64,000 nucleotides of DNA from Psammoneis japonica (lineage: Eukaryota). Shown in pieces: positions 10,276-48,820 of the stretch. Below the pieces are notes generated by a model. The model was not told the DNA's origin and ran no database searches. It saw only the letters and a program-made list of their open reading frames with translations. The stretch covers positions 1 through 64,000 of the forward strand of contig QPGO01000218.1 of the NCBI GenBank assembly GCA_008632985.1. The letters are read 5' to 3'. Each line of letters opens with the position of its first letter. Position 1 is the stretch's first letter. Position numbers and translations under genes: made by a program.

Positions 10276-13200
10276 GGTCGCGCTGCAGTTTCAACTTATT
10301 GTTGTCTCTGCACTATCTACTTCCTACCGGTAGCTCTTGCCGAAGGAGACCAGCCACAAAAGAAAATGTGAATGGCATCAGCCCCCGCCGGCCCGAAGGC
10401 ATCGTCGTCATTTTTCGCGCATCGACGCGCGTTGGAGGGAGTCAAAAAACGGCGCGCTTTGATTTCATTTGGATCGGCCGGCTCACGTGAAGTTCGATGA
10501 GAACACACTTCACATCTGCATCACCACGCCAATGTGTCGAAAAGTGCAAAATTCCATCCGACGTTCAACATGAGCAATGCAACACCGACAACCACAGACA
10601 CTGACGCATCGTTGCATCGCTCGTTTCAGCAGTTTACGGCCTGCCCTGCATCCAAGAACACAAGCCACGTGCTGTGTCACTCACAATGAAAAGGTTTCTT
10701 GTGCAAGCAAATTGGGGTCACTTTCATGTCAATGTGTGTTTCAGCGGCGTTTTCATTGGTCGGGCCAACAAAGCCAGGATCCTGTGTGATGTGCAATGCA
10801 GAGAGGGAAAGAAATGGCATGCTTTGGATTGGCTTGCTTGTTCTCCTGGTGCTCAATCATGTCCACTCCAGCTGAAGTGTTTTTGTTTGACACGCCATTT
10901 CTGTGCCACATGCCAAAAATTTTGAAGAACCAAAATTGCCACACAACACCACAGAGAAACAAGTGCAGCAATTGGCAATGCAATGCCAGCCTTGACAAGC
11001 ACAAAAAAACACTGATGTGCACTGTCACATTTTGCTTGCTTCACCAGCTTTGTGGCTTGCACACCAGCGAGGAGAGTGCGCAACTCCAAGCTGTGCTTTC
11101 CAAACAAGGTTTAGAAAGAAATCCTTTGAGCCAGGAAAAGCATGCACTTTGCCAGAAGGAAATGTGTTGTCATCATCTGCAACTGTGCTGCCTTTGAGCA
11201 GTCCCTGTGTGCAGTTTCTGCAAGGGACCAAGAAACTTGTGTCTTTTCATCCCCGCCTTTCTTGAGTGCTCTTTTCATCATGCTGTTGTTGACATGCAAA
11301 CAAGGGGCTGCATTTTGGGGCACATTGAGTCCTCAGCTGATGAAGCAATTGCAAATGACAACAAGCCCTTTATGTGCACAGCTCACATGCTGAGAGGGCA
11401 GCTGAAACAGAAACACCAGCCAACCAACCAAAAAGGAGGAGGTGGCACAGTGTTGAAGAAAAATGTTTTGAATCATCTCCTGGTTTCAACACCATCAAAT
11501 GCCAAGATCAACTCATTGCATTGTGCCAACCAGCCAACAACCACCACTGCACTGCTTTGTGCAACAAATGGATCTTTGGCTCCAGCTGCAGCGGCTCACA
11601 CATGCTGCTCTTGCCACCAAGACAAAATGGCTGAACTGGTGTCTTTGCAATGATGTGAGCATGAGTTTGAAAAGGTGTCCAATGGCCCAATGGCACAAGT
11701 GTCTGCTGTGTTCTGAATCAGGCTGCCAAAGGTGGCAAAGAAATTCTTTTACAAAAATGGGAAGCAGAAAAAATTTGATGCAGACAGTTGTTTTTTGTGT
11801 GCGACAAATTGCGGCGCATGCTGCACTCTGTTTTTTCACACTCATGTTCCCAGTCAACAGACTCTTTTTGTTTGTTGGATTCTGTCTCATCATCCTCATC
11901 ATTTTTTCCTCATTTTCTTAATCCAGCTCTTCTTCAGTGTTGCTTTCCTCATCTCTGTGTGGTGAACTCCTCAAAACAGTCCAATGCACCACACTGTCAT
12001 TTTGCTTTAAGAATGGACTTGTGCCCATCATTGTTGAAATGCAGTGGATTTAGATGATGTGCTGTGCCCCTGCTGCAAGTCCCAGGCAGTTGCAGGGAAG
12101 GCAGCAGTTCATTTGGCTCAGTGTGGCTGCTTGTCATTGCAATTTGCTTGAGCAGCCCTCTCATTTGCAACTCAAGTGATTGCCCAGGCATGCACCACCC
12201 TTTGGCTCTTAGAACAGAGCTCAAACATGTTCCCTTGCAAACCCACCCACCAGCTTTCACAGCAGCAGGCAGGTTGTGCTCTCTCCATGCATCATCTTCT
12301 GCAGCTTTGTGGGGAATTTTTCATCCCATTGGAGCAGACAAAAACCATCTTCTGAGTCACAGGACAATGTGCAGCACAACTGCTGGCAACAACCTTCATG
12401 GCAACTTCATTGGTCAAAACATCCAATGCCAATTGTGAGCCACTTGCTTGAACCTCACTGGCAGCATCGCCTTCATTTGTTTGACAAACTTGACAGACTT
12501 GCCAGTCATTCAGCAACTCAAAAACATTGGCCACAACTTGAAAATGCGTTGTGACCACAGGGGCATGTCTCAGCCAGTTGTTGTGAAGGGCTCACATTGC
12601 TTGCCCATGGCATCTTGGCTGCTTCAGTTGAGCCTTGCATGCACAAGAAATTCACCTCATGGCAACCAAGCCAATGGGAAAGTCAGGTTCAACCCACAAT
12701 GAAGTTTGCATGGCTCCTGCTGCAATTCTTGCAGCTTGACTTTGATGGAGCCACTGACAACAATGATGGGATCTTGTGGATGGCAAACTCTTTCTTTCTT
12801 TCTTTCCTCTGTTGGCTTCCAAATTAGCATGCTTTCTGTCACCAAATGCTTCTTTGTTGTTTCCTCCCTTTTAAGATTTTTCAAACACTTGCACAGAGCT
12901 GTGCTCATTGACAATGTTGTTGTTGTCTGTCACCAATGCACTGGCACCAACTCTCTTGTCTTTGTCATGATTCACTCCAGCCACATTGATGGGCTTCATT
13001 TCCTGACAGATGGCTGACTTCATGTGCACTTCAATGCCACCTGCTTCTCCACTGCCATGTCCAGGTGATCACCACAGTGCCCAACATTCCTCTGCCTTCA
13101 GCGGGGACCTTGTTTGGTTGCTGCTGCAGCAATCACAACACATGAACTTGGTTGTTGAGCTGTGATGCCATTCTCTTGGAGCAGCAGCCCACAGGTGCAA

Positions 13201-15810
13201 AAATGCTGTGGCCCAATGACTCAAATGCCTGACAGCACATTTCCATGCAGCAGTTCTTGCCCAGAGTGATCTCATGTGGCATGCGGCAATGCCGCTGTTC
13301 AAAGCAAGGAATGCAGCCATCCTTTGTGAAGACACTGGTCGGTTTGCAAAACTTTGTCAATGGCAGTGTTTTTTGTTTGACAACTGCACCCTTGTTGTTT
13401 TCAGGATGGCATGCATCCATGAACAGAACATGTTTTGAGCAACACTTCACAGACAGACACCTTTGGAAGGAGATTTGGAGCTGGGCAAGAGGGGCAACTT
13501 TTGCACTTGCAGAGCACAGGTCCAATGAAGATGGTCCTGACCAACAACATTGCCACACACAATTGCCACCATTGCATCCTGAGGCTCCTTGGGATGGAGG
13601 TGACTCTCTCATCAAGAAAGGAGCCAACTTCAAACCTCAAAGAAATGCGCCAGTGGTGGAAAGATTGATGCACGCAGCAGAGAGCTCAATTTTCCGGTGA
13701 ACAAAGGAGGGGTCGTCCATGACTGGGAGATCAGAAATGGGAGCACTTGATTGTGTCATGGGTCGGTCATCAAGAATGATGTGTTTCACGTGCAGAAACC
13801 ATGCTGGTTCTTGCAAAAAAATGCCAATGAACAAAGCAAATGGAAGACAGTCCATTGATGTCAAAGAAGGGCACGCGCTCACACTTGTCAGTGCTGCAAC
13901 AGAAGCAGTGCTTTCACCCCATGGAGTGAAGGACTTGATTGGCTGATGGGAACAAAGAGGGTTGTTGAAGATTGAAAAGTGTGCTGGGTGCAAGAAACTC
14001 AGAGATGTGACAAAGCATTTGTTTGGGGTGTTTGCTGAAGTGCACAGAATTTGCACTGTGTCTTGTGAAGATGTTGTGAGCTTTAGAGGCTTGCCACTTC
14101 TATGGTCTGTGATCCATCCATGTCAGTCACGTCAGAGGTGTCTTTGACATCAACCTCACTGAGTCAGCACAAGCTGTTCTTTGTGCGCACACACACGCAC
14201 GCTCGAGATGCAGTCTGACCATCTGTGCATTCCGTGGCTGACCGTGACACACTGGAATCCATGTAGAAATTTCTTGGATCTGCAGAGAATGCAAAAAAGA
14301 TCAACGTGCATGCAACCCACAAGGAGTCAACACCAGTCATTTTCCACTTGGCAACATTGCTTGACATGCTGAAACACCATTGATTGATGGAAATGGCCAG
14401 AATGGTCTTGGGAGACCTGGCAAAATGCAGTCTGAGAAAGGCAACATCAGCACAGGAGCGCACACGCAGAAACACATGCAGGGGTTGCTGGCAGGCAGCT
14501 GCAGCACATTTGTGTGGAGCTCATGCATGGATTTGTTGTGCAGTCATTTGCTGGCTGGTTTCATCTTTCCTTTCCCCATCTTTGGTGATGATCATGTCCT
14601 TTGTGCTGGGGGGTGCAACCACATCATCTGGAAAACATTGTTGCTCTTGTTCAGAACTCACTCTCTCTTGTTCAGAATCCTGTGTTCTTGACAAGTCCTT
14701 GACAATTGTTCACAAAGGGAAATTAACAAGTGTTTCAAGGCTCCAAGTGGGAATTGACAGCCAATGTGGTGAATCGGTCTCATCGTGCACGCACTTTTGA
14801 CAATTTGTCATGTCTGCTCATTTTTGACATGATTTTTGATTCTGTCCACACTCAAGCTGACCTCACAAGTGGGAAACAACAGTCAATGAAACTTGTCACT
14901 TGCATTTGTTTCCACCTTGACAACCGTGTGTTGGCAACAACTTTCTGACATTGTTCATTTTTGACAACAACAGCAACAATGTTCAGTTGTCTTGTTGACC
15001 TGATTGTGCATCGGCTGTGTGCCGCTTGTCATCTGACTTGCAAATGTTCCATTTTGTTGTTTCTACACCAAGTGCCAAAAATGCTCCCTTTTTCCCATCC
15101 TTTTTTTCACATTGCACCAGTTCCTGTTGTCCTTCCCAGTCCCCACACACAATGGGTGTCCTGTTTTGGTCCTCTTGTGTCCTCCCTTGTGACCACTCTT
15201 GCTCTCTCCATGACCCCACTCTTCTTGCTCTCTCTACATTCATCCACAACAGGCAACAATGTCATCATCCTGCATTGATCTGTCTTAAGTTCTCACTGTT
15301 TGGCAGGCCAAAGCATTGTCTGCAACAAGAGAAAACTTTGTGCAAATGACAAGGTTTGTGCATGTCTTGTGTTTCTTACAATCTTGTCTCATGCACAGCT
15401 GCTGCTGCTCACCTTTGTGCCCTCCCCACTGCCCGTCTTCTGTTTTAGCTCAGTCTGCATGTCCAGATGTCTGTGTGCAAAGATTTGCGCAAGTGTTGGT
15501 CCTTTGCATTGATTGCCTGATCTCCATGCATTCGCCACTTGTTTCCTCTTTCTCACCTTGTGTCCCACATTTTGCTCCATCCCATCTGCAATGCCGTTGC
15601 CTGTCCCTGCTGCTCTCATTGTCAGATGTTGGGTGCAACTTGAGTTTGCATTGTTGTGTCTTGCAAGGCAGCAACAACTCATGTTTTTGGCAAAAAGGCG
15701 AGCCTGTCTGTCAGTTGATTCCCATCAGCATCTCTTTTTCAGCAACAGTTTTGTTTAAAAATCAATGTTTGTGTTGTGTCATGATGGTTTGAAGGATTTG
15801 AAACAACTTT

Positions 15811-16177
15811 TGCACTGTGCTCGAAGAACGAGTGTAAACGAAAGTAGAACAGTGTACGAAAAGTGGAAATTGTGAGACCAAATTTTGCTCTGTGATTTTT
15901 GGTTTCTCCGAACGAGTTCTCAATGGCCTGAAGCTTCTGTGCTGCTTCTACAGACAAAAGGCCTTTCGGAGAACATGTTTGTGACAACAGATTGTCCGGG
16001 TGCGATTGCCATTGACACGCAAGATGTCAACATCGTCAATCGATCGCACCTGCAATTCTCGACATCCGATCAACTCTGTGTGATCGTTCTGTCCTTTGCA
16101 CGCATCCACGACTGTGGTGCGATTGACACACAAACAACACACAATCACAAACATGTGTGTGACAGTCGCATGCTGCA
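15811..16177 (-). repeat. 3' LTR of the Gypsy element
   Basis: Ungapped 367-nt match to 20172-20538 with 30 mismatches. Adjacent to the polypurine tract at 16178-16189. Confidence 0.93.
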
Positions 16178-19100
16178 TTCGCCTCCCTAATTGCACATTG
16201 GAGTCATTTGCAAGTGGATTGTTCGACGGACATCGACAGTGTCAACAATGTCTCCACTTTCACTGCATTGTGCCATTGGCAATGACTGTTGTTGTTTTGT
16301 GTGGGCAATGTGGGGCCGTTCCAATTTCCGAATGTCTTTTGAGAGTGACATTGTTTGTTTCTCACTTAACATGCACATGTGTGGCATTGCGTCGAGCATT
16401 CTCATTGACGTTCTTGTTGACATGAACACAAGGACTAATTGTCCTGGAGCAAGTGTTTTTCCTGACCATCGATTGTACACAGCATCGTGCCCAGTGCTTA
16501 ATGTGCGCTCTCAATTGTGGCGTTCACTTGCTTGCTTGTGGATTTCATGCAGTTTGGCGGGCTTGCTTTGTGTGCCATGTTGCTCTGCTGCACTGCCACG
16601 TTTCACAAGTGACAATGAACGATGGTCAAAGACATTGTGACCATTTCGTCTTGACAATCAATCCTGTGATGGTCATGAATTCCATTGTGGATTTTTTTTT
16701 TTTGCACTTCAACCATCTGTCAGTTGGATTTTAATCGTCATTTGGACGTTTCTTTCTGACACACCGGCGTCATTTTGTCATTCCGAAGGCACTGGTTTCG
16801 TGCACTGAGTGGACAAATGTCCATTTTTCTTTTCTTTTTCTAGATCTTTGGCACATCTCGTGTGTCGACATGATGTACATTTTAATGTCTTGCCTCGTAC
16901 ATTGTACAATACAACCGTACGGGTGTTGTGAGATTGTCTTTTGCCAGTGTGAAGTGGATACGTATAATGTACACCAATCTGTCACTGTTTTTTCCTAAAT
17001 CGTCCTTTAAAAAGGCGATTTTATCCTTGTGACATGAGCATTTTTCGATCTCGCTCGCCTCCACGAAAAGTGTTCGTATGATATGTCGCGTCCGACAATT
17101 TGGAGGGAATGTCTTTATCCCGTTTTAACGGTAGGACATTGTCGTAGGATTCAATTTTCTATAGTAAGTCGGCTGATCGCGTCTATCGCGACGATGTTCG
17201 CCTTGCCCTCGTTGTATTCTAATTCGGGACTGAAGTTGTCAACGTATGACTTTGTCCGTTGTGTCTTATGATCCGTATATGTATAAATCTGTTGGCCAAA
17301 CAGTATATTTCGGAATTTTATAAGTGTTTTCACTATGGACAGAAGTTCTTTTTTCCGTTGTAACGTATAATATTGAAATCCGTGTATGATAACAATATAG
17401 TTTTTGATTTGATACGCTCCATATTTTCGGAGACTTTTCGTTCCGTACTTGTACTTTTGCCGTTTGACCTTTATTGAGGTGAATTTGGCTAGTGTTGTAC
17501 AGGAGATCGTTGAGACTTACATGTCTCGATAATGGCAACGTATGACAACGAGATGTCGTAGTGTTCTTTACGTTTTTCTCGTGTTGCGATTGCTTGAATC
17601 GCCTCCATTTTTTTTGTAATCGATTGCATATCGTTACGTATGGAAGTCTTGACAGTTTATTTCAAGTTAAATAGTGAAGGACTTTTGTTGTTAACCTTCT
17701 AAGCGACTGTTCTAGTCGTTTGAATGCCGTGTTAAGCTGTTGCTTGTACAGGTGATGTTTTGAAGTTACTTTTGTCAGGCACAAACGATCACATGTAGTC
17801 GTTCTGACAACTTCAAACCTGTTATGAGTTCACTCAAGTGTTGTATAAAAATATCTGGGGCTCTATAGATTCTCATTGGAAGTCCACAGTGCTCATTTTC
17901 TCCCCACGGCATGATTTTCGTGTGAGCACGACGTGTGCTTTTTTTATTTGACATGGTGGCATTCCATGTTTGAATCAAATAGATTACATGTGTGAAACGT
18001 TCTTGCTTCAATGGTGTTTCCTGAACATTGGGTAAAGGATACACCACCTGTGTGAACCTTATGCTAAGCTTCTGAGTGTCGGATGCGGTCGAACTCGACC
18101 TGTTTTCTTTGGACAATGAGTCTCAGAGCGACTTGTTCAGAGCAACTTCATTCTTAAGACTTCAATCTTTCATAATAGGTCAAACTCCTTTTGATTGGAC
18201 GCCTCCAAAGACTGTGATAGGAGAAGGTTCTCACGCGTCGTGGAATCGCGTCAGATTTTCCACGATGAGATCCACTGATGCTTCCCACACATTCGTCTGA
18301 GGAACTTTTCAAAACGATTTCAACCTCTTAAGAAGAAGATTGAGTTGGTTGTGTTCATTTGGGTTAGATGCATCGCCGCAGTTGTCACTTGATTAAGATC
18401 GATGGCGTGATGGGTGTGAGTCGAGGACCATTGGTTCCGTCATTGACTCCATTCACGGCGTCACATTTTTCAATGTGATCGGTTTTCAGCTTGAAAACAT
18501 CGGCATCGAAGAGTGTATGAACATTCTTCATAAGGTAATTGCTTCTTCCCATTAGATTTCTTCATTTGCGTAGTCCAATGTGACTTGCAGGACTGGACAT
18601 TAAGTCGCGTCCCATGATCACATCATTTGAACCTGAAGAAAATTTGGTGTTTTCAACACACACTGTTTGAATGTCAGCATGCCTTAAATTTCGCATGGTG
18701 AGAACTGAATTCGGTGTTTACTGTCAGTCGTAAAGAGCTCACCCTTGGTTTCCCAAGTTTTTGGTGGCGGATTCTTGTGTTCTCAACTTTCGCACGAATT
18801 TGCGCAAAATTATGGTTGACGATGTTCCGTCATCGACAGGAACACGTAGATGCTTTTTTCTCTCCTTTCCCAAGAAAGCATTCATATAAATGATGACTCC
18901 TGGACTAGCATGAATTATTTCTGCCTTCTTTCTAGGCTTCCCAACATCCAGTGAAGCATGTGGTTCGTGAACAGACCAAAATTGTTCTTCGGATTCAGTC
19001 TGGATCATCCGATCAAATTGGCACTTTTCTTCACTGAGGGCATCAGAATCTGATTCTTTGCCCTCATGCTCTTTTTCTTTGTTCAAGGAACTCGCTTTGA

Positions 19101-20171
19101 GCATTTTTTGAACCGCCTGATCAATCATGACGTTCATCTCTTTTTTTGCGAGCGGCATTTTCGTTGTCGCGACGCGACCGCGTGCGATTGCCATTTGAAC
19201 GGTGCATTTTTGGGTCTCTTTCAGAGTCACCCTTGCACTCTTTTGCCAGTTCATTTTTAGAACAGCTTCAATCCGTGATGCAGGTGTTCTTTTTTCAAAG
19301 ATGAGACCTTGCATTCACTTTGGATTGTTCTGGCACCATGTGGGAGACCATTTTTGGAACCAAATTTGGAACCTTTTTTTATTTTGGAACCAACTGCGCT
19401 GTCAGAGCCTGAGTTGATGTGTTTTTTCGTCACGGACGTCATGAACGACCTTTAGATGACTCAAAACTTAATCAGCTCATCAAGGATGAGTTGCAACAGT
19501 TGATTGTTTTGGACAGTAGACTGATGCTGCCATCCTTGCGGTGCGAGTGACAGCTGATAAATCAGCGCTCGGTTTCCCGCTAGATTCGACTTAGAATCCA
19601 TCTGAGGGTCGCGTGGACTCTCATCATTGACCTCTTGGGTCTAACAGAGGCTTTCTTGCTGTCAAGCAGCTCTGGTTTCTTCAGATCGTCTTGAAAACAA
19701 TGACTCTGATTCTGAAGTGCAATTCTTGGAAAGACATGAGATGTGAGACTCTTGAGGTGCTTTCCAACGGTTCCATCTTGCTCTTGGACTCGAGGCTCGT
19801 TGATTCGGTCTCCAAAACTCTCCAACAGTCTCTCCTTGCACACCAGACGCATTTCTCGGACCTGATCGACTCGGAACTTGCATTCTCTGCAACCATGACT
19901 TGGTGTAGATTTTTTGACAATGCGGTGCACTTGAGAGCCCTTGATCCTTGGGTGCTTGGAACAGACCGCATTAGAGCGAATCCTCTTGTCTGGCAGACGA
20001 AAAACAGCGTTCCATCTTGAGGCACTGCTCGGCTTGAGCTTCTTCCGCTCGGAAATCGATTCCAGCAGAACTGATGCGATTCGTTCCTGTTCACAGAAGA
20101 ATTTGCAAAGGCACATTAGTTAAAAATTTTCATTTTCCGTGCTTTTTACCTTCTGTGGTGTGCACACACAA

Positions 20172-20538
20172 TGCACTGTGCTCGAAGAACGAGTGCAAAC
20201 GAAAGTAGAACAGTGTACGAAAAGTGGAAATTATGAGATTAAATTTTGCTCTGTGATTTTTGGTTTCTCCGAACGAGTTCTCAATGGCCTAAAGCTTCTG
20301 CACTGCTTCTACAGACAAAAGGCCTTTCGGAGAATGTATTTGTGACAACAGATTGTCCGGATACGATTGCTGTTGACACGTGAGATGTCAACATCGTCAA
20401 TCGATCGTATTTGCAATTCTCGACATCCGATCAACTCTGTGTGATCGTTCTGTCCTTTGTACGCATCCACGACTGTGGTACGATTGACACACAAATGATG
20501 TACAATCATAAACATGCATGTAACAGTCGCATGCTGCA
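20172..20538 (-). repeat. 5' LTR of the Gypsy element
   Basis: Ungapped match to 15811-16177, followed by TSD CTTT. No clear primer-binding site is recognisable. Confidence 0.93.
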
Positions 20539-20704
20539 CTTTGATGAATCATTCAGTCATTGATGTCATGCGTGCATTTGGCAAATTTAATTTTGTCACA
20601 TTGGTGTGTTCTTGTTGAGATTGAAACTTTCACACTCATGCTCCACACTCCCAGCTCCAGGACTTCAATCAACACCTTTTTGCCATTTGGTGTGTTCATT
20701 GACC

Positions 20705-21350
20705 ATGCCGCCAAGAAAAAGGAAGAAGCTGAACCCACAAGGTGCTGGCCGCAACAATGCCAGTCACACCAGTGCCGCCAGTGGCCGTGATGGAGGTGGT
20801 GGCCATGGTGGAGGTGGTGCTTGTGGTGTTCAAGAGCAAGGTCAAGGTCCTCCCAGGCAGCCCAGGCAAGGCTCTAGGACAAGCCATTGGTGACATCAAG
20901 GCTCTTTGTCTGGAGCTGCTCCGCCAGCTGGTGACCCATGATCTGCCACTGCTGCTGCAGCCTCCATCAATGAAGAAGCCAATGCCTTTGATGATGTGTT
21001 TGACAACTTTTCCCCTGCACCAGTTCAACAAAAAGATTGTGACTTTCTCAAGGGGTGCAGTGTGAAGTCCTTTGCCACAAGACTCCTTTGCTGCTCAGAG
21101 CCTCTGAGCACCATGCCACCTGTGGCATCAACCCAAAAAAAATGTCTGGCAATGAGTGCAGAATGTGGCTGTTGCTTTGCTGGCAGATGCATGGCCTTTG
21201 CAAAAACCAAGACAAACAGATGTGCAAGCAGCTGCAGCAAAAGCATGAAAAAGCTGGCAGTGCAAAAATTGCTGCTGCCAACAAGAAGATCACCTCTCTC
21301 CAGAAAGCTCAGAAACAGACCCTTTGTGATGCCAGCAAAATGACAATTGC
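20705..21350 (+). pseudogene. Decayed ORF (basic NLS-like and Gly-rich N-terminus), probably transposon-associated
   Basis: MPPRKRKKLNPQGAGR...GGGGHGGGGACG continues in frame through TGA stops into AAAASINEEANAFDDVFDNF. The pattern fits CpG decay of Arg codons. Confidence 0.4.
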
Positions 21351-21489
21351 CAACTTTGTAAAGAAAGTGGGCAACTTGGGCTCAAAGGTGGGTTGTGCTC
21401 TGTCCTTCTGTTCTCTCTTGCTTTTCCATCCAAACAAGAGACAGGGAACACCATTTGTTTCCATTCACTGACTCCCTGCCCTGGTTGTT

Positions 21490-23335
21490 GTCAGCTCCCC
21501 TGGGACACAATGGAGGCACCCGAGGCCATCATCCAAAGACAACTGGGCACTTGCGCTGTCACATGGCCACAGAAAGCTCCCTTGTCTCTGCAGGTGGGGT
21601 GGCTGGGCCAAAGCAAGCCAATCACATCAGAAAGAAAAGGGGCTCCATTGGCAAAAGACAAGGCTTTCTTTCCCAACCATTGTTGTTCTTGCCTCCTCAG
21701 GGGCCTGATGGATTCTCTTGTTGTGCCCATCCCAAGACAACTGAGTGCTTGCACTGTCACACAGATGGCTCCCTTGTGTCTTTCTTGCAAATTGGTTCTT
21801 GGCTGGGCCAAACCTGGTCATGTCAGAAAGACAAGGTGCTGCATTGACACAATGCAAGGTCTTTGCTTCCCAACCATTGGTTTTCTTGTCTCAGCAAGTG
21901 TGGTGTCTGGGGGCAAACCCTGCAATGTCAGAAAGCAAGGTGCTGAATTGACACAAGACAAGGCCTTGCTTCCCAGCCATTGTTGTTGTTGATTGTTCTG
22001 GGACCTTGTGGAGTCACCAAAAGTCATCCCAAGACAACTGATCACTTGCACTGCTGCACAGATGGTTGTCTTGTCTCTGTGGGTGGGGTGGCTGGGCCAA
22101 ACCCAGTCATCAGAGAGACAAGGTGCTGCATTGACTCAAGACAAGGTCTTTGCTTCCCAGCCGATGTTGCTGTTGACTCCTCTGGGATCGAATGGAGTCA
22201 CCAAAAGCTGTCCCAAGACAACTGAGCACTTGCACTGTCGCACAGATGGTTTTCTTGTCTCTGCAGGCTGGCTGGCTGGGCCAAACCCAGTCATGTCAGA
22301 GAAACAAGAAGGTGCTGCATTGACAAAAGACAAGGCCTTCGCTTTCCAACCATTGTTGTTGTTGTGTCTTCTAGAATCCAATGAAGTCACCAAAAGCCAT
22401 CCCAAGATGACTGAGCACTTGCGCTGTTGCACAGATGGTTTTCTTGTCTCTGCAGATGGGGTGGCTGGGCCAAACCCAGTCATGTCAGAGAAACAAGGTG
22501 CTGCATTGATGCAAGACAAGGCCTTTGCTTCCCAACCATTGTCAATGTTGAGTGTTCTGGGATCCTGTGGAGTCACCAAAAGTCATCCCAAGACAACTGA
22601 TTGCTTGCACTGTTGCGCAGATGGTTTTCTTGTCTCTGTGGGTGGGGTGGCTGGGCCAAAGAACCCAGTTGTGTCAGAGAGACAAGGTGCTGCATTGACA
22701 GCTGTTGTTGGCTCCCCTGGGATCCAACAGAGTCGCCAAAAGCCATCCCAAGAGGACTGAGCACTTGCGCTGTTGCACAGATGGTTTTCTTGTCTCTGTG
22801 GGTGTGATGGCTGGGCCAAACCCAGTCATGTCAGAGACACAAAGAGGCTGCATTGACACAAGATGAGGCCTTTGCTTCCTGGCCATTGTTGTTCTTGCAT
22901 TTCTGGGACACAATGGAGGCATCCCAAGCATCCCAAGCACCCCAAGACAACTGAGCAATTGCGCCCCTGTTGCACAGATGGCCTTCTTGTCCTTGCAGGT
23001 GGGGTGGCTGTGAACCAAACAACTCAGTCATGTCAGAGAGACAGGGTGCTGCATTGACACAAGACAAAGCCTTTGCTTCCTGACCATTGTTGTTGTTGCA
23101 TCCTCTGGGACCCATTGGAGTCATCCAAGGCCCTCCCAAGACAGCTGAGCACTTGCACTGTCGCACAGATGTTTCCCTTTTCTCTGCAGGTTGGCTGGCT
23201 GGGCCAAACCCAGTTGTGTCAGAGAGACAAGGTGCTGCATTCTTGACACAAGACAAGGCCTTGCTCCCCAACCACAGTTGTTGGTGTGTCCCTTGTAACC
23301 CACTGGAGTCCTCCAATGCCATCCCAAGGCAACTG
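21490..23335. repeat. Tandem satellite of about 10 diverged units of about 185-190 bp
   Basis: Core cccaagacaactgagcacttgc..gcacagatgg..cttgtctctg..ggtggctgggccaaacccagtcatgtcagag..acaaggtgctgcattgacacaagacaagg recurs near 21532, 21731, 22027, 22212, 22401, 22586, 22746, 22941, 23134 and 23323. Confidence 0.92.
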
Positions 23336-24253
23336 CACACCTCTTTTGCCACATCTGTGGGCCCGATGCTTCCACACCTTGTGCAGCTGGACATCTTCTC
23401 ATTTGTGGAGGAATCACACAAGGGGCTGCTGCCACTCAAGACAAGGCTTGCAGCTTCCCAAATCAGGAGTGCAAAGACATCACAATTGGGCCAACCCACC
23501 TGACAAATGCAGACTGAGTGCATTTGGGATGCATGTCATGCAGGCAGCAACTCAAACCAATGTGCGCATTTGTGGTGATGATGATGATCTAGCTTGGCAT
23601 TTGGCAAATGTTTGCTGGGACATGGAGACACCACCATCAGATGCTCCATTTTAGTTTCTCAAGAAGCAGCCCTGGCCTGTGCATCATGCACCATCCACCT
23701 GGCAAGCATGTTGCTCCAGTTGGAGACACCAAGACATGTCATCAAACTCATCACCAGAATGAACCCCTTGGAACTGAGGATGTGTCACTGGCAAACTCTG
23801 GCCATTGTCTTCATTTGTGGCAATGGTGACAGGAAAGAAAATCAAACAATCCTCCCAGTCTCTGTTGTCTGGTGATGGCTTTCCAAGCAGTGGTGCTGTT
23901 GCTTGCTTTGTTGGATGCAAAGACCATGCCTTGGCAAGTTTAACTCCAAGCTGCTCTTCCTGCCATTCCCAGTGCTTCTCTTGCTTCCTGAAGCACTGGG
24001 GGTGTGCTTTCCAAAGTCATCATCAGGGTTCATGCTAAAATGAAGAAAGAAGAACACTGGAGACACATTTGAAAATGTGTTTGTGCAGCATGCCTGTTGT
24101 GTTGTTGTTGTTGTTGTTGTCACACATCCAACCAGGACAACACAGTGGATTGTGACAGGGGTGTGTCATTGTTGTTGTTGGATGTTAGATCGGAGGATGA
24201 GTTGTGCAGCACCAGCAAGGAAAAGGACAGGTGCAGGAGAAACAGAGCAAAGC

Positions 24254-24447
24254 AAAGGCAGAGAGCTGACAAATGGAAGGAAAAAGGAAGAAATGAAGCT
24301 GTTCTTGAGAGGTTTAAAATGAGGACAAAATGAGCCACACAGGTGATTTAAACAAAGGCAGAGATCTGACAAATGGGAAAAGGGAACAAATGAAGCTGTT
24401 CTCAACAACAGTTCAAAATGAGGACAAAATGAGCCACACAGGTGACT
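24254..24447. repeat. About 100-bp unit, two tandem copies plus a dispersed copy at about 26438-26556
   Basis: aaaggcagaga.ctgacaaatgg...aaatgaagctgttct...aaaatgaggacaaaatgagccacacaggtga is repeated. Confidence 0.8.
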
Positions 24448-27400
24448 TTACATGATGCTTTTGGGCCACGTCCGAGTGGCCATTGCTGTGATTTTTGACA
24501 AAAATGCTGCTGCCTCACAACCCACAAAATCATTTCTTTTTCTTTCCAAAACACAGACAGGCAATGCAACTCAAGTTGACCATAGGATTGGTTGCAGCAG
24601 TGGCAACATTTAACACCAAGTGCAAGAAACACCTGGAGAGCATGGGGAAACATTGCTGTGATCATGAGGTGTGTGTCCCACCGGCAAAGAAAGGCATCTT
24701 CATTCAATGCCTTAAATCATCATCTGATCTTTTTGCTCAATTTCTTTGTTTCTTCTGCATCTCACACTGCAGCAAATGTTTTGAAGGTCAGAAGTGGAAT
24801 GCACTCAGCAGACACCCATGAACTTGGATGGTGCATTTGACAAAGATGACAGAGAAAAGCATGCACTCTTTCTTTGGTTTGCAAGTGCGGCAATCCTTGC
24901 TTGTCACGATCATCTGCAACGATCAAATCGACTCAATGTTTGCATCAATTCATCTAAAAGTTTCAACCAATGGCTCAAACACCACCCTGTGTGACTTGGG
25001 GAGACTGTCCTGGGCAGTCATCAGGTGTTAAAAATTTGTGCGAGTTCCTGAGGAGCCCCAAGCAGTTGGAGATTGGATCCTGTGAACATGCCAGCTCCAA
25101 CCAAATTGATTTGGAGCACGGAGCACAGCTCAAATTGTGCTCATGTTGTCTGCAAAGAGGTGTTTTTAAGTGGCCAATGCTTCTAAGATTTTGGGATCAA
25201 ACTGTAGAAAATGCTGCCAGCAACAATTAAATGACAAGAGCTGGCCAGAGCCCTTCTGTTGGACACCCATTCTCTCATCATTTTGCAGGCACGGAATGAT
25301 GCACAGTTTGTTGACAGCAGTGTGGGTTGAACACTGTGCAACAGATCAGGAAGCATCTGCTGCATGGGAGGACATTTAAAGTGAGCAACAGCAAGAATCA
25401 CCAAGCACAATCAGTGCCATTTAACCACAAAAGGTGGGTTTGATCCAGGACTTGGTGTGAGCATGCAGGCAGTTCTCTCTGCTGGGCTCCAAGCACTGGA
25501 GATCATTGCTGCAATGATGAGATTGGCTTTGTTAAAGAGCAATGTCACAAAGTGGCATGAGCTGGTGCTTTCAATGGCCAATTGCAACTGGGAGTTGTCT
25601 CCCATCTTGTGAGTTGTCTGCTGTGACCAACCCACCCAACAAGAGAATCTGCAGTGGATTCGTCGGACCCCCTTCCATTGCAGTCTCCAAAATGTGTGTG
25701 CATTGAAGGTCCAAGCACTGTGAACATTGTGTGCATGGTGGAGAAGTCAAAGAAGCCAGTGATCACACAGAAACTGACCTGCATCACATCCCTTCTCACC
25801 AACACATGTGCCTTGACTGCTGCTCCCCATGAAATCCAGTGTGTGGAGACCAGTCTTCCGGCATTGAAGTGGTGGCCTCATTTTGATTGCACTGCCAAGG
25901 TCTGTGACAATCATCCATGTCATGTGTGAGACAAGCAAGCCACCCAAAAGAGTTCACATCACACCCAAAAAATTCTTGCAAGCTTGCAAAAGAGGATTTC
26001 ATGATCAAAAGTGCAAGAAAGGGATCAATCCTTCTGCGGAGCCAAAATGACACCGTGCCCATGCCAAATGAAACAAGCAATGCCTGTGAGCACACATTGC
26101 ATGTGAAAAATTCTTACAATGACAAGCAGCTGTTTCACACTTGCCTTGGTTGTTTCACACATCACCATCACACTGCAGCTCTCCTGGCAGAAGTGGAAAA
26201 GAGGACATGACATGTTGGTGCTTCAACAGTGATTTCCTGACTGATTGTTGCAATGACTCTGCCTGCAAAGCTCTCTCAAACAACAGCCAAAGCAAAAACA
26301 CTGTATTTCAAGAGTCTTGACAACTGGTGCATTGTGCAAAGCTTGCTTGAGTGCCTTTCAGAAACAAGCTCACTTTCTTTCACCACAACAGATTGAGCCA
26401 GCCAGCAAACTGCAGCACACAGCAAAAACACTCATCTGAGCCACACAGGTGACTCAAACAAAGTCAGAGATCTGACAAATGGAAGGAAAAAAAAAACAAA
26501 TGAAAGTTCTTGACAAGTGTTTTAAATTTGGACAGAATGATCCTCCACACAGGTGGCTCACAATGAGCAAAAAAGATTCAATCATTTGTGACTTGACAAT
26601 TGCTGAGAAACAAAATTGACAACTGTGTGTGTTGAAGATCTGTGGATGCAGTCAGCATGCATGTGTGAAAATTTCAGTCATTGACAAGTTGCACTCTTGT
26701 CAAGCACGGAAACATGTTGCAGACAATTGGCGCATTTTCCAACCATTTGACAAAAGCTTTTTGAATCTCTGGGGTGACTTCATGAGGGCATTGACAAGGT
26801 TGCACTGAAGACCACATGATGCCTTCCTCTTGTCCTTGACCAAGGCTGCTCCAACATTTTTGCTTTTTTTCATTTGGCAATCAATGCACAGTGCTTTTGT
26901 TTGCACCCAGCACTTTTGCAAAGGTGTTGAAAAAACCTCAGGTGTGCCGTTTGACTTGTGGAGAAAATCAAAGATTCCTGCTGCAGCAGAATGGACAAAA
27001 GATCTTTTGTTGTCAGCACAAAAATCTTTGCCATCGTTGTTGGCATGCACCAACATTTTGCCCAGCTGCTTTGTATTTGCGTGGCAGCTTCCATTGCTTT
27101 GGGCAACACAAAAATGCAAACCTGGACAGTCAAAGCAACATCAGGCATGGACAAAGTGCAGAGCACCAAGGCCACAGCTTGTTGCTCAGGGACATTGGTG
27201 GAGGACAAGATGGCATCTCTTGTTCTTGTGGCAGCCAGCATGGCACTGTGCTTGTGTTGACAATCTTTGTGGGTTTTTACAAAATGAGCCAATGGCTCTG
27301 TCTGTGGCATGAACTTTGGTGGCAGTTGCCAAGTCAGAAGGAGTGGTGGTGTCCAAAGGAGCAGCAGAGGGAGTGACGGCGGCATTGTCAGAGGTGAGCC

Positions 27401-28946
27401 ATGCTGTTGGAGCAAGTGGCTGCATGTTGCAGATTCAGCAGGAGCTGGGAGGGCCAGGATTTCCACGGAAAACACAGATCTTTGCATTTGCAACTCCAAA
27501 CTGCTTCTTCTCTTTGTCATGGGGCATTGGAGTGAGAAGTGAAAAGGAAATGGGCAATGCAGCAGATGTGTGCTCCAGCCCCAGGCAGGACTCTGTGTGA
27601 CATGAGCCTGCAAAGTTCCACACTGTGGCCAGTGGATGCACTCATCATTCCAGCAAAGCCACACAGAAATGTGTGGGCAACATGCGGCACATGGCAAAAA
27701 AACATCAATGTCACAGCTCAGCAGCATGAGGCCCCACCTGGCTGGAGCTGGAGTGCATCAGCAGAAGAGGAATGTTTTTGGTGCACTCAACAGAAAACTT
27801 GTCACTTCAGTGGCTGTGAAAATTGAGTGCCAAGAGTGACTTCATCTTAGCTGGGGGCAAAGAACAAACACACAAGCTCCAAAAAACGAAAAAAGTGGCT
27901 GTGTGGCCACCATCTTTTGTGCAGAAAAGACAACACATCAAAACCACGTTGTTTGGCACATCAAACTCCTCTTCAATTTGTCATTTTTTTAAATTGCATG
28001 GCAAGCTCACATGAAAAATGCAAAGTTTTGTGCACACTCACATCTTGACTTTGTAAAAATCAAAAACTGAAGGAGCCAAACACAAATGGGCCATTTGATG
28101 GATTGTGTGCTGTCCAAGTGTGTCGCCTGCTGGAGCTGGAGCCAGCCCTTTGCTCTCTTTGCTCATGAGGCAGCAAGCCAGAAATGGCACCATTGGTCAA
28201 AGTGCTGTTGGGCACAACAAAGCAGAAGAATGTGAAATTGAGAGAGTCAACAAGATTGAGAAGGTGTTGTTGTTCTGTGATCTTTTGTCTTTGTCATTGC
28301 AGCAAGTGTTGCTGCTCATTGACACTTAAAAGATCTTGATCCTTGAAAGAGCTCCAGCAGTTTTTTCATGAAGTGCCAGGCCTCTGATGGTTTTTGTCCA
28401 GACCTCAGACCTTGCAAGTCATGATGGGCGTGCAGAGCAGCAGCCGCACCCTGGTCTTTGTTCCTGTTTTGAACAAACAGAGTGAGCAAAACAAGCCTCC
28501 CACTGGGGTGGCACTGACCACTGCTCAGCATGCTCCATGCCACATTGTTGCGCTGCACACAGGGTTGAGCACAGGGTGCATGTGAGCCACTGACACATTG
28601 GTGCACATGACCAAAGCACATCTCCGGTGGTCAAAGTGCGCCACTGATGTCCAATGCTGTGCACATTGTTCATGAACAAAGGATGGTGAAACATCGTTGC
28701 TGACAGCACAAAGTCTCATCTTTTTTGCAGCAGAGTCACTGCGCAAGTTCCCAACCACACCAGAACTCTCAATGAGTTGATGCAAGATCTCTTAAACTTA
28801 GACCTCGTGTCTGCTTGTCTGCTAGTCCGATCCCCGCCGCGCCGCACTTGTGTCGAAGTGGGTGGGTTTCGATTGCGACATGGCTGGCACAATGGCGCAC
28901 GGCACGATTGTGAACGTTGCCTTCGTGGAATGCATCCTTCTTGGAC

Positions 28947-43079: not shown

Positions 43080-43410
43080 CCCACATGCCTCATCAATGCT
43101 CTGTGCCCCAGTGGTTCACCACCCTTGATGCCTTTGGGGACCATGCCTTTGCCTGCAAAGGAGGTGATCCAAGTTGTCCTCCAAAGGTGATCATGATGCT
43201 GTCTTCATGAGATCATGTCACACAAACTCCAGGGGTGCCTCTTGCAAAATCACGTCACTCACCCAATGACATCCACCTTGAGCCTGCACACCTTCTCCTG
43301 AATCACCCTCTTCTCCACCCAGCCGATGTTGACATTGGCACCCCTCCTCTCACTTCCCTTGCCACCCCCTCCCACCATCATTGCATTGCTGGTGATGTCG
43401 GCCCATCCCC
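43080..43410 (+). mobile_element. Remnant of a restriction-like endonuclease domain of a CRE/NeSL-type non-LTR retrotransposon
   Basis: LDAFGDHAFACK followed by HLEPAHLL..LLHPADV (compare RPAD) and IAGDV. Confidence 0.55.
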
Positions 43411-43422
43411 AAAGCCCCCCCC

Positions 43423-43437
43423 NNNNNNNNNNNNNNN
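43423..43437. other. Assembly gap (15 N)
   Basis: Run of N after a poly-C tract. Confidence 0.99.
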
Positions 43438-48019: not shown

Positions 48020-48820
48020 CACAAGTGAGAAAAGAAAGAAGAAGCAACACAGCAACAAAATGAATGACAGGGACAAGATCATTTTGGAGAACTGCTGCAA
48101 CAACACCTTGTTTAGACAGCACAAGTTTCTAAATGACAAAGTCCTCAACAACAGGAATGGCAGGGTTGCAAAGATGGTGCTCCTGTCCAAAATCAATGTG
48201 CCCCAAGAAATCAGAGCATGATTTTGGGAAATGTTGAAGGTCGAGGCACAAAGGCAGATGACAACAAAGAGGGACAACACCAGCAGGGAACCAAAGAAAG
48301 AGTTCTTTCATGAGTGCTGCATCAAAATGGAGTTTGCAACACATGGGGTGCTGGAAGACTGCTGACACACATTGCTTGGTGTTTTGCGAGTGCACAGGGC
48401 ACATGGATCACAAGAAGAGAAACACACAAGCAGAAAACAATGCCAAGATGCCATCTCTGGATGAGATGCTAAAGAGGAGAGACAACATAAAAGCCCACAG
48501 CTGTTTCACCCTGCACTTCCTGTCAGTGGCGGTGAGAAAAACAAAGTGGAAGAATCAGCTCAAATCAAGATGTTGCTTGAGCAGGTTGCCATCTGCGAGC
48601 GATGCGGCATTCAGCCTGCTGGTTTTGGAGAAAAAGAGGAACAAGTGTGGACACACGTGCATGGCAAAACAAAGGAAGAGTTGAAAGAGGCTAAAAAGGA
48701 GGGGCTCATTTCAGAGGCAAAACACAGCAATGGGAACGGTGGTCAAGCAAAAAGGAATCAGGGATGGAACAAGGACAGGTGTGCAAAGAATTGGGAAAAA
48801 AGATTCATGAGCAGAGATTG
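48020..48820 (+). pseudogene. Degenerate repeat-associated ORF
   Basis: LFRQHKFL..FW, FLSVAV..KW..SASDAAFSLLVLE..W, QGWN resemble a motif I recall from diatom repeat-borne ORFs (SDEAFxLLxLEN). It is broken by stops and frameshifts. Confidence 0.4.

What the first reader, a model, noticed from the sequence alone, without database searches (positions are those of the whole stretch)
10500..28790. Multi-kilobase TpA voids with sharp edges next to normal genes
Seen: about 20 TA dinucleotides by eye in 10.5-15.8 kb, where a few hundred would be expected from base composition. The same holds in 20.6-28.8, 37.7-49.5 and 60.3-62.4 kb. Normal TA use resumes within a few hundred bp, at the HLTF start (10275) and the gene at 28947. 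The voids cover unrelated sequence classes (LTR element, LINEs, satellite). Inference: the mutagenesis acts on chromosomal domains, probably heterochromatin, and not on one element's RNA or cDNA, which would be strand-biased and family-specific.
Basis: partly seen in the sequence, partly recalled or inferred. Interest (0 to 1): 0.85.

Follow-up and report, generated by a model that had tools for sequence, protein, structure and literature searches.

The report
TpA-erasing hypermutation of diatom repeat islands
In this diatom, the repeat-filled stretches between genes have had nearly every TA and CG step rewritten to CA or TG, and a young retroelement shows the TA rewriting happened in place on the DNA, matching a mutation-based defence so far reported only in an unrelated alga.

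Summary
TpA counts are 20, 33, 41 and 12 in the four blocks. That is o/e 0.05-0.09, against 0.59 in the genes. The same blocks have also lost CpG (o/e 0.11-0.20), and CpA/TpG are about doubled. The total of pyrimidine-purine steps and the GC content are unchanged.

An independent re-assembly of a public DNA run reproduces the gene-to-void junction at single-copy depth, so this is not an assembly artefact.

A retroelement with a CTTT target duplication sits between voids 1 and 2. Its two LTRs differ at 30 of 367 positions, and all 30 are transitions. 26 lie at TA/CA/TG steps, and all 20 CpGs are intact. TpA loss is therefore post-integration, acts on DNA, hits both strands, and outpaces CpG loss. 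It depends on context: ATA 2% kept, TTAA about 84% kept.

The window is from a diatom. The signature matches the TpA-only hypermutation measured in Bigelowiella natans (2026 preprint). My searches found no report of it in diatoms.

The enzyme (adenine deaminase or thymine oxidase) and the targeting rule remain inferred.

The parts
10338..16822 (.). TpA-void 1. Its older core, 10642-15818, is also a CpG-void. The margin 10338-10641 next to the HLTF-like gene has lost TpA and kept CpG.
   Evidence: HMM segmentation. Counts. Margin: TA 1 against 9.6 expected, CG 29 against 20.7. An X1 contig of 4228 nt at depth 66.8 spans 9526-13750 with 2 other letters.
15811..20538 (-). Young, degenerate LTR retroelement of a high-copy family, inserted into an older void. 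LTRs at 15811-16177 and 20172-20538 (TG...CA ends). Target-site duplication CTTT at 15807-15810 and 20539-20542.
   Evidence: Self-BLAST and alignment. Word depth of 9,456-21,089 against about 60 for single-copy DNA. The only protein trace is RT_RNaseH, E 7e-4 and 20.1 bits, below the cut-off of 24.8.
15811..16822 (.). Tract inside the young element with TpA lost and CpG kept (5' LTR plus about 650 bp).
   Evidence: TA 10 against 42.9 expected (p 2e-9). CG 43 against 51.3. The 5' LTR has 4 TA and the 3' LTR has 14.
16823..18941 (.). Unmutated centre of the young element. It serves as an internal control.
   Evidence: TA 107 against 104.4 expected. CG 101 against 86.3.
18942..20114 (.). Second tract inside the young element with TpA lost and CpG kept.
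   Evidence: TA 11 against 48.0 expected (p 1e-10). CG 51 against 61.6. At 18953, 18962 and 19247 most other copies of the family carry TA.
20524..28783 (.). TpA-void 2, which is also a CpG-void from 20485. It resumes at the 3' junction of the LTR element.
   Evidence: HMM. TA 33/555 and CG 54/470. No Pfam family in six read-through frames of 23340-28783.
21473..23335 (.). Tandem array of units of about 189 bp (satellite) inside void 2.
   Evidence: TRF. Unit mapping. In an alignment of 8 units, 7 column pairs split CA/TG and 4 keep some CG.
37724..49792 (.). TpA-void 3. CpG-voids at 37594-44611 and 45942-49282. A 15-N gap lies at 43423-43437.
   Evidence: HMM. TA 41/766 and CG 143/705.
44612..45941 (.). 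Island inside void 3 with TpA lost and CpG kept. GC is raised to 0.52-0.53.
   Evidence: TA 13 against 43.8 expected (p 5e-8). CG 73 against 89.3. GC. Its 250-aa ORF has no homologue.
60068..62453 (.). TpA-void 4 (CpG-void 60364-62550).
   Evidence: HMM. TA 12/139 and CG 17/124. No Pfam family in six read-through frames.
7640..10275 (-). HLTF-like gene (HIRAN, SNF2, RING, helicase C) with normal dinucleotide use. Its ATG lies 63 bp from the edge of void 1.
   Evidence: Pfam. ATG at 10275. Spliced X2 contig over 7656-9197 and 9386-10048.

Best explanation
The voids are old repeat and transposon islands between genes of a diatom. Two DNA-level transition processes have worked through them in place.

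Process 1 is fast and episodic. It turns TpA into CpA or TpG, an A:T to G:C change on either strand. It shows a trinucleotide hierarchy: ATA/TAT is hit more than GTA/TAC, then CTA/TAG, and TTA/TAA far less, with TTAA nearly immune. It arrives in tracts of about 1 kb and occasionally also hits a neighbouring A:T pair.

Process 2 is slower. It turns CpG into TpG or CpA, with TCG lost most. Most likely this is deamination of 5-methylcytosine in silenced DNA.

Together they leave almost only CA and TG among pyrimidine-purine steps, and GC stays constant because the two processes cancel.

Shown here: the composition, the direction of change, its post-integration timing, its strand symmetry, the order (TpA first), the context rule, and the reality of the sequence in reads.

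Inferred: process 1 is an enzyme-driven genome defence of the kind measured in Bigelowiella natans. I commit to deamination of adenine in 5'-TA-3' (hypoxanthine then pairs as G) by a TadA/ADAT2-like enzyme recruited to silenced DNA. I hold that enzyme assignment at only about one in three.
For: Composition. Symmetrised per-base frequencies change by TA -0.036, CG -0.049 and CA/TG +0.091.

Direction and timing:
- LTR pair: 30/30 differences are transitions. 26/30 lie at TA/CA/TG steps, 7 of them CA-versus-TG pairs. The other 4 are A:T (3' LTR) against G:C (5' LTR), next to a mutated TA. 20/20 CpGs are shared.
- Of 27 listed variant places in the repeated element, the window has CA/TG where most other copies have TA at 11, and the reverse at 4. 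Only 40 of 416 places were shown.

Order of the two processes:
- The CpG-void stops at the element's junctions (15818 and 20485), while the TpA-void runs into the element.
- Six zones have lost TpA and kept CpG.

Context rule, seen in two separate sets of regions:
- Old voids keep ATA 0.02, GTA 0.04, CTA 0.09 and TTA 0.24 of genic density.
- TpA-only zones keep 0.03, 0.19, 0.31 and 0.48.
- 73 of the 89 surviving TAs carry TTA/TAA, and 36 of them are TTAA.

Reality of the sequence: the X1 contig crosses the gene/void edge at the same depth as the genes.

Precedent: mutation-accumulation lines of B. natans gained 231 mutations in two viral inserts. 230 were A>G or T>C, and all of those fell on TpA. 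The authors propose an ADAT2-like deaminase (bioRxiv 10.64898/2026.01.13.699255; Results and Discussion read).
Against: - No enzyme, chromatin mark or DNA modification is visible in the window, and no whole genome was available.
- X1 probably comes from the sample the window was assembled from, so it rules out consensus error but is not an independent organism.
- The polarity of single TA-versus-CA/TG differences is inferred from the doubles and the family majority. There is no outgroup.
- The context rule uses genic DNA as a stand-in for the ancestral sequence.
- In the TpA-only zones, V-TA-A sites gave V-CA-A and V-TG-A equally (+31 against +29). The data therefore do not say which base pair the flank governs, and they cannot separate adenine deamination from thymine oxidation.
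- The spared 3' LTR beside void 2 fits neither simple spreading nor whole-repeat targeting.
- No viral or transposon protein domain was found in the voids, so 'foreign DNA' rests on the LTR element, the satellite and raised depth at 13.3-15.3 kb.
Confidence: 0.7

Rival explanations
1. Same in-place TpA process, but a different chemistry. A TET/JBP-type dioxygenase oxidises thymine at TpA to 5-hydroxymethyl- or 5-formyluracil in silenced repeats. The oxidised base mispairs with G and gives T>C. The same enzyme class acting on 5mC could add to CpG loss.
For: - In dinoflagellates a TET/JBP homologue makes 5hmU, 5hmU is enriched on repeats, and blocking it de-represses transposons (PMC11572971; abstract and passages read).
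- Both lost steps start with a 5-methylpyrimidine (T, 5mC) followed by a purine.
- The product-choice test does not favour either model.
- That 5-formyluracil pairs with G is recalled knowledge, not checked in a call.
Against: - TpA and CpG loss are uncoupled in six zones and in the LTRs (0 of 20 CpGs changed). One enzyme doing both needs extra assumptions.
- TpG, also a T before a purine, accumulates rather than being lost.
- No TET/JBP gene or modified base could be examined here.
Confidence: 0.15
2. RNA-level A-to-I hyperediting (ADAR-like) of double-stranded retroelement transcripts, fixed in the genome by reverse transcription and re-insertion.
For: - ADAR favours a U before the edited A, as cited in the B. 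natans preprint.
- Copies of the LTR family differ mainly by transitions: 347 of 399 kinds-of-change counts.
Against: - LTRs of one insertion are identical at integration, yet they differ by 30 TpA-centred transitions.
- A satellite and single-copy DNA are affected.
- Both strands are hit equally.
- ApA is not depleted: AA/TT o/e is 1.2-1.3.
- The tracts cross the LTR/interior border.
Confidence: 0.04
3. Sequencing or assembly artefact. Dense base modifications in heterochromatin are misread (5mC read as T, modified T read as C), giving random CA/TG at true CG and TA sites.
For: - Misreads specific to one strand at palindromic steps would give exactly a CA/TG mixture.
- The window has a 15-N gap and differs from the X1 contigs by small gaps, for example 8 in 3.2 kb, which suggests a long-read backbone.
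Against: - Logan contigs of run X1 hold 0.95 of the sampled words of void 1.
- One 4228-nt contig at word depth 66.8 runs from the gene into 3.2 kb of void with 2 other letters. Exact 31-mers at that depth imply accurate reads. I infer they are polymerase-based; the platform is not on record.
- TTAA is spared and the trinucleotide hierarchy is graded.
- CpGs are fully read in the TpA-only tracts.
Confidence: 0.04
4. The blocks were always like this: foreign or viral DNA, or DNA under selection against TA and CG words, rather than mutated in place.
For: - Low TpA and low CpG occur in some viruses.
- No recognisable genes remain in the voids.
Against: - The LTR pair and family comparisons show the changes arising after insertion.
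- The CpG-void ends exactly at a dated insertion junction.
- The sum of pyrimidine-purine steps equals the genic value, as conversion predicts and selection does not.
Confidence: 0.03

Closest known systems
TpA-restricted hypermutation of integrated giant-virus and virophage DNA in Bigelowiella natans (Mettrop et al., bioRxiv 10.64898/2026.01.13.699255, 2026)
   Same: - Almost only A>G/T>C changes, on TpA, giving TpG/CpA on either strand.
- Confined to blocks beside normally evolving DNA.
- A long-term footprint of low TpA with high CpA+TpG, enriched in transposon-type sequences.
- Episodic action.
   Different: - The host is a diatom (stramenopile), not a chlorarachniophyte (rhizarian).
- Depletion is near saturation here: o/e 0.05, against Rho 0.45 for their viral region and a cluster cut-off of 0.43.
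- The targets seen here are an LTR element, a satellite and unclassifiable repeats. No viral genes were seen.
- CpG is co-depleted here. CpG has 0 occurrences in their main text.
- A flank hierarchy with TTAA spared is found here. Their main text gives no flanking context.
- No rate was measured here.
Repeat-induced point mutation (RIP) of Neurospora and other ascomycetes
   Same: Transition hypermutation of repeated or invading DNA on both strands. It leaves long blocks with skewed dinucleotides and dead genes beside normal genes.
   Different: RIP turns CpA into TpA, so TpA rises and GC falls. Here TpA is destroyed and the change is A:T to G:C, the opposite direction. Dependence on homology and on a premeiotic stage was not testable here.
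RIP-like TpCpG hypermutation in Pucciniomycotina fungi (Horns et al. 2012, PMC3318451; abstract read)
   Same: C>T in repeats at CpG with a 5' T preference. Here TCG/CGA is the most depleted CpG trinucleotide, at 0.07 of genic density against 0.12-0.18 for the others.
   Different: The bias here is only about two-fold in survival and may be ordinary decay of 5mC. It is the slower and later of the two processes.
CpG decay in methylated transposons; diatom DNMT5-dependent TE methylation and RID-related DNMT4 (Hoguin et al. 2023, PMC9998398; passages read)
   Same: Diatom transposons are CpG-methylated. Loss of CpG to TpG/CpA is the expected long-term result. Many diatoms carry a DNMT4 related to the fungal RIP enzyme RID, and its function is unknown.
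   Different: It explains only the CpG half. That paper reports no mutation signature: 'deamination' and 'TpG' have 0 occurrences.
5-hydroxymethyluracil marking of repeats by TET/JBP enzymes in dinoflagellates (Li et al. 2024, PMC11572971)
   Same: An enzyme that acts on thymine in DNA, enriched on repeats, and tied to transposon silencing in another SAR lineage.
   Different: It is an epigenetic mark, not shown to be mutagenic. Nothing here shows the modification exists in this diatom.

Membership tests
TpA-targeted A:T>G:C hypermutation (Bigelowiella natans type) | Changes are almost exclusively A>G / T>C transitions | tested here: met
   In the LTR pair, 30 of 30 differences are transitions. 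Every one can be read as A:T>G:C in one LTR or the other.
TpA-targeted A:T>G:C hypermutation (Bigelowiella natans type) | Hits fall on TpA and give TpG or CpA on either strand | tested here: met
   26 of 30 LTR differences lie at TA/CA/TG steps, and the other 4 touch a mutated TA. CpA and TpG rise equally.
TpA-targeted A:T>G:C hypermutation (Bigelowiella natans type) | Confined to discrete regions beside DNA with a normal spectrum | tested here: met
   HMM edges lie within 63-131 bp of flanking coding starts at two edges. The gene-bearing segments have TpA o/e of 0.57-0.61.
TpA-targeted A:T>G:C hypermutation (Bigelowiella natans type) | Targets are invading DNA (viral inserts, transposons) | tested here: inconclusive
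   An LTR element with a target duplication, a satellite, and repeats at 4-13 times depth are hit. But 0 of 101 void ORFs reach a Pfam cut-off, and no viral gene was seen.
TpA-targeted A:T>G:C hypermutation (Bigelowiella natans type) | A per-generation rate about 1000-fold above background, active only in some lineages | not testable with these tools
   This needs mutation-accumulation lines. The only indirect sign is LTR divergence of 8.2% with no difference outside the TpA process.
Ascomycete RIP | C>T at CpA, so TpA rises and CpA/TpG fall | tested here: not met
   TpA o/e is 0.05 and CpA/TpG are 1.8-1.9, the opposite sign.
ADAR-type RNA hyperediting fixed by retrotransposition | Changes arise before integration and on the transcript strand, and are limited to retroelements | tested here: not met
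   The LTRs of one insertion have diverged. A satellite and single-copy DNA are affected. There is no strand bias.
RIP-like TpCpG hypermutation (Pucciniomycotina) | C>T concentrated at TpCpG in repeats | tested here: inconclusive
   TCG is kept at 0.07 of genic density, against 0.12-0.18 for ACG, CCG and GCG. TCGA is the least surviving tetranucleotide. The bias is modest.
5mC-driven CpG decay in methylated repeats | CpG lost to TpG/CpA in DNA that is methylated | tested here: inconclusive
   The loss and its products are shown. Methylation itself cannot be read from the sequence.

The most novel reading that the evidence does not exclude
A TpA-specific DNA-editing defence is ancient and shared across the SAR supergroup (diatoms and chlorarachniophytes). 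It reads a three-letter code: RTA/TAY is hot and TTAA is exempt. It strikes newly silenced DNA in bursts of about 1 kb, before cytosine methylation has left any trace. One deaminase with a 5'-T rule may act on both T-A and T-C(G), so a single enzyme would write both voids.
Probability: 0.2. Interest if true: 0.9.

Novelty: new member of a known kind. Interest (0 to 1): 0.74.

Why it matters
Targeted A:T-to-G:C hypermutation at TpA has so far been measured in one chlorarachniophyte and reported in one 2026 preprint.

Finding its saturated footprint in a diatom would mean one of two things. Either it is a widespread eukaryotic genome defence that mirrors fungal RIP, or it evolved twice.

About 26 kb of this 64-kb window is written almost without TA and CG. 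That affects repeat annotation, gene finding (TAA and TAG stops vanish, so false ORFs lengthen) and the dating of LTR insertions (here 8.2% divergence with no ordinary substitutions).

The window also adds facts that any proposed enzyme must explain: the flank hierarchy, the sparing of TTAA, the tract size, and TpA loss preceding CpG loss.

Diatoms include species that can be transformed, so the enzyme question becomes testable if the signature is present in one of them.

Tried and rejected
- Whole genome: none is held, so no genome-wide scan or enzyme search was possible.
- Pfam on ORFs: I scanned 150 of the 195 stop-to-stop ORFs of 100 aa or more. The 45 left out were overlapping or antisense ORFs in genic parts, one in the LTR element, two at 49.5-50.0 kb, and those beyond 62.3 kb. 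All 101 ORFs lying inside the voids were included. None reached a cut-off. One had a sub-threshold DUF6549 match (E 3e-4).
- Six-frame read-through with X at stops: void 4, 23340-28783, and the minus strand of the LTR interior. Only a sub-threshold RT_RNaseH appeared. Void 1 and void 3 were not read through in six frames, so a LINE remnant there is not excluded.
- ORF 45125-45874: 0 homologues among 126 candidates. I take it as a chance ORF in stop-poor DNA.
- Borders of the CpG-kept island at 44.6-45.9 kb: only 21-nt and 14-nt direct matches, with no LTR or TIR.
- Survey of other diatoms: 80 metagenome loci around Ycf48 relatives, 17 of them 3 kb or longer. None had a void. They are gene-dense contigs, so this says nothing about distribution.
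- Which base pair the flank governs: the tetranucleotide gains in full voids are confounded by CpG products. The TpA-only zones gave +31 against +29. Unresolved.
- General TpC deamination: TCT, TCC and CTC are kept at 0.80-0.96 and are unchanged in the TpA-only zones. Rejected.
- Expression: no RNA holder was listed by the look-up of sequencing runs. Run X2, whose contigs are spliced, has next to no cover over 10.7-20 kb. I use neither as evidence.
- The search of earlier findings: nothing on this genome. Only phage cases with CA/TG skews turned up.
- Literature searches for the signature in diatoms: none found.
Full report
**1. Observation**

| Block | TpA observed / expected | o/e |
|---|---|---|
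| 10500-15800 | 20 / 376 | 0.05 |
| 20600-28790 | 33 / 555 | 0.06 |
| 37700-49500 | 41 / 766 | 0.05 |
| 60300-62400 | 12 / 139 | 0.09 |

The four gene-bearing segments have o/e 0.57-0.61, and the LTR-element segment 15801-20599 has 0.39. Measured against the genic o/e of 0.59, the Poisson p values run from 1e-21 to 2e-136.

The 1-kb profile and an HMM over CA/TG/TA steps give TpA-voids at:
- 10338-16822
- 18942-20114
- 20524-28783
- 37724-49792
- 60068-62453

The first edge lies 63 bp upstream of the ATG (10275, minus strand) of an HLTF-like gene. The edge at 28783 lies 131 bp before the ORF that opens at 28914. The observation and its sharp edges are confirmed.

**2. What the finding did not say**

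The same blocks have lost CpG: 57/287, 54/470, 143/705 and 17/124, which is o/e 0.11-0.20 against about 1.0. CpA and TpG rise to 1.74-1.92.

The four pyrimidine-purine steps together make up 0.246 of positions in void 1 and 0.235 in genes. Symmetrised frequencies change by TA -0.036, CG -0.049 and CA/TG +0.091. TA and CG have therefore been converted to CA/TG by transitions. GC stays at 0.47-0.49 because A:T>G:C at TpA and G:C>A:T at CpG nearly cancel. Where only TpA is lost (44.6-45.9 kb), GC rises to 0.52-0.53.

**3. Is the sequence real?**

No whole genome is held.

One public run, X1, holds 0.95 of the sampled 31-letter words of void 1. When laid on 1-20000:
- Its contigs have word depth 55-67 over both the genes and 10.0-13.3 kb of the void.
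- A single 4228-nt contig at depth 66.8 spans 9526-13750 with 2 other letters and 3 gaps. That covers the gene, the edge and 3.2 kb of void.

X1 probably comes from the same sample as the assembly, so it is not an independent organism. It is, however, a separate assembly of accurate reads, which removes consensus or polishing error. I infer that the reads are polymerase-based. Such reads would read 5mC as C and 5hmU as T. The platform is not on record.

**4. Organism**

The Ycf48/HCF136 protein at 1961-2914 is at most 88% identical to any database protein. Its named best relatives are all diatoms: Chaetoceros tenuissimus at 86%, and MMETSP records whose names begin Cyclop-, Amphi-, Dact- and Trice-. 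Contigs of run X2 skip GT..AG introns of 76-111 nt in the genes at 1-10 kb. The window is diatom nuclear DNA, not Bigelowiella.

**5. What the voids contain**

- A 189-bp tandem array at 21473-23335.
- DNA at 4-13 times single-copy depth at 13.3-15.3 kb.
- Single-copy DNA with no recognisable coding remnant.

On the coding question, 0 of 101 void ORFs of 100 aa or more reach a Pfam cut-off. Six-frame read-through of void 4 and of 23340-28783 gives 0 families. A LINE was not confirmed. Void 1 and void 3 were not read through in six frames.

**6. The key object: a young LTR element between voids 1 and 2**

Its LTRs are at 15811-16177 and 20172-20538, with TG...CA ends and a CTTT duplication on both sides. 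It inserted into a pre-existing void. Word depth of 9,456-21,089 shows a family of roughly 150-350 copy-equivalents. Its interior keeps only a sub-threshold RT_RNaseH trace.

The two LTRs were identical at integration. They now differ at 30 of 367 positions:
- All 30 are transitions.
- 26 lie at pyrimidine-purine steps. Eleven have CA or TG in the 5' LTR against TA in the 3' LTR, one is the reverse, and seven are CA against TG.
- The other four are A:T in the 3' LTR against G:C in the 5' LTR, within three bases of a mutated TA.
- Each LTR has 20 CpGs, and all 20 are shared.

A CA-versus-TG pair cannot arise by one change from either state. It needs a TA (or CG) ancestor hit independently in each LTR, and CpGs are untouched here, so the ancestor was TA.

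Of the 27 variant places listed for the repeated element, the window has CA/TG where most other copies have TA at 11, and the reverse at 4. One is a CA/TG double, one is TG against CG, and nine are other changes. Only 40 of 416 places were shown. Across the family, 347 of 399 kinds-of-change counts are transitions.

The direction is therefore TpA to CpA/TpG, after integration, on DNA, and on both strands.

**7. Two processes, two speeds**

The CpG-void stops at 15818 and resumes at 20485, which are the element's junctions. The TpA-void runs about 1 kb into the element.

Zones that have lost TpA but kept CpG:

| Zone | TA observed / expected | CG observed / expected |
|---|---|---|
| 15811-16822 | 10 / 42.9 | 43 / 51.3 |
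| 18942-20114 | 11 / 48.0 | 51 / 61.6 |
| 44612-45941 | 13 / 43.8 | 73 / 89.3 |
| 10338-10641 (margin) | 1 / 9.6 | 29 / 20.7 |
| 49283-49792 (margin) | 4 / 14.8 | 24 / 31.2 |
| 60068-60363 (margin) | 4 / 11.0 | 15 / 17.7 |

The reverse pattern, CpG lost and TpA kept, occurs only in two slivers of 130 and 97 bp.

The element's centre (16823-18941; TA 107 against 104.4) is untouched. Its 3' LTR (TA 14 against 17.8) is nearly spared although it abuts void 2. The TpA process is therefore much faster than CpG loss and arrives in patches of about 1 kb. It does not appear as a smooth gradient or over a whole repeat.

**8. Context rule**

Of the 89 TAs that survive in the old voids:
- 36 are TTAA. That is 40% of survivors, against 4% of genic TAs, or about 84% of genic density.
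- 21 are CTAA/TTAG.
- 0 are ATAT, 2 are ATAC and 1 is GTAC.
- 73 of the 89 carry TTA/TAA.

Survival by trinucleotide, as a fraction of genic density:

| Trinucleotide | Old voids | TpA-only zones |
|---|---|---|
| ATA/TAT | 0.02 | 0.03 |
| GTA/TAC | 0.04 | 0.19 |
| CTA/TAG | 0.09 | 0.31 |
| TTA/TAA | 0.24 | 0.48 |

The order is the same in both sets. A model in which the two flanks add independently, worked by hand from the counts, reproduces the mixed contexts within sampling noise.

For CpG, TCG/CGA is lost most (0.07 against 0.12-0.18), and TCGA is the least surviving tetranucleotide. Other TpC trinucleotides are not lost in the TpA-only zones, so there is no general TpC deamination.

Which base pair of a TA the flank governs could not be resolved: +31 against +29.

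**9. What is known**

A 2026 preprint reports mutation-accumulation lines of the chlorarachniophyte Bigelowiella natans (10.64898/2026.01.13.699255; abstract, Results and Discussion read):
- 231 of 302 nuclear mutations fell in an integrated giant-virus region and a virophage region.
- 230 of these were A>G or T>C, and all of those were on TpA.
- The rate was about 6e-7 per site per generation, and it appeared only in some lines.
- The authors propose an ADAT2-like DNA adenine deaminase.
- Their main text mentions neither CpG, nor diatoms, nor flanking context.

Six full-text searches found no report of this signature in diatoms.

Other relevant work:
- Diatom transposons are CpG-methylated, and many diatoms carry a DNMT4 related to the fungal RIP enzyme RID, of unknown function (PMC9998398; passages read).
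- TpCpG-biased RIP-like mutation is known in Pucciniomycotina (PMC3318451; abstract read).
- In dinoflagellates a TET/JBP enzyme places 5hmU on repeats and silences them (PMC11572971; abstract and passages read).

**10. Reading**

The window shows the saturated, long-term footprint of a TpA-specific A:T>G:C hypermutation of silenced repeat DNA, of the B. natans kind, in a diatom. An ordinary-looking but TCG-biased CpG decay is laid over it.

I favour adenine deamination at 5'-TA-3' as the chemistry. The base before the wobble adenine in tRNA, the natural ADAT substrate, is the conserved U33; this point is recalled and was not tested. Thymine oxidation is not excluded.

Targeting by chromatin state is plausible from the sharp gene-side edges and from margins that reach a CpG-rich putative promoter. 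It remains untested, and the spared 3' LTR argues against uniform domain-wide action.

I file this as a new member of a known kind, known only since 2026. It adds four features: saturation, the flank hierarchy with TTAA exemption, patchy tracts, and TpA loss before CpG loss.

Noticed in passing
window 1-10100 (run X2): Run X2 is recorded as 'DNA?', but its contigs skip GT..AG (CT..AC on the minus strand) stretches of 76-111 nt inside the genes. It therefore behaves as a transcriptome, and it confirms five introns in the Ycf48, unknown, and aconitase-X genes.
   Followed up: partly
window 3594, 7367, 12825: Of 8 single-copy differences between the window and the X1 contigs, 3 are TA in the window against TG/CA in X1. 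Two of those lie in genic DNA. Two more are CG/TG changes. This may be allelic variation or a hint that the process is still running. The numbers are too small to say.
   Followed up: partly
window 15811 (loose end of an X2 contig): A spliced-run contig ends on the LTR start with 28 preceding letters that match the stretch before the 3' LTR. It carries TA where the window copy has TG. Some other copy of the family, less mutated, appears to be transcribed.
   Followed up: no
window 42000-44000, N run at 43423-43437: A strongly C-rich strand (C 376 against G 161 in 42501-43500) surrounds a 15-N assembly gap inside void 3. The 319-aa ORF at 42070-43026 lies in it and has no Pfam match.
   Followed up: no
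window 10338-10641: The 300 bp just upstream of the HLTF-like gene's ATG is CpG-rich (o/e 1.37) yet almost free of TpA (1 against 9.6 expected). A likely promoter seems to have been swept by the TpA process without losing CpG.
   Followed up: partly
voids in general: TAA and TAG have vanished, so TGA is the only stop in the voids, and chance ORFs of 150-320 aa appear on both strands (for example 26873-27757 and 45125-45874). Gene finders would over-call genes here.
   Followed up: partly
window 6671-8004: X1 word depth rises to 218-286 over part of the aconitase-X / HLTF-like interval, against about 60 around it. This suggests a short repeated piece inside or between these genes.
   Followed up: no
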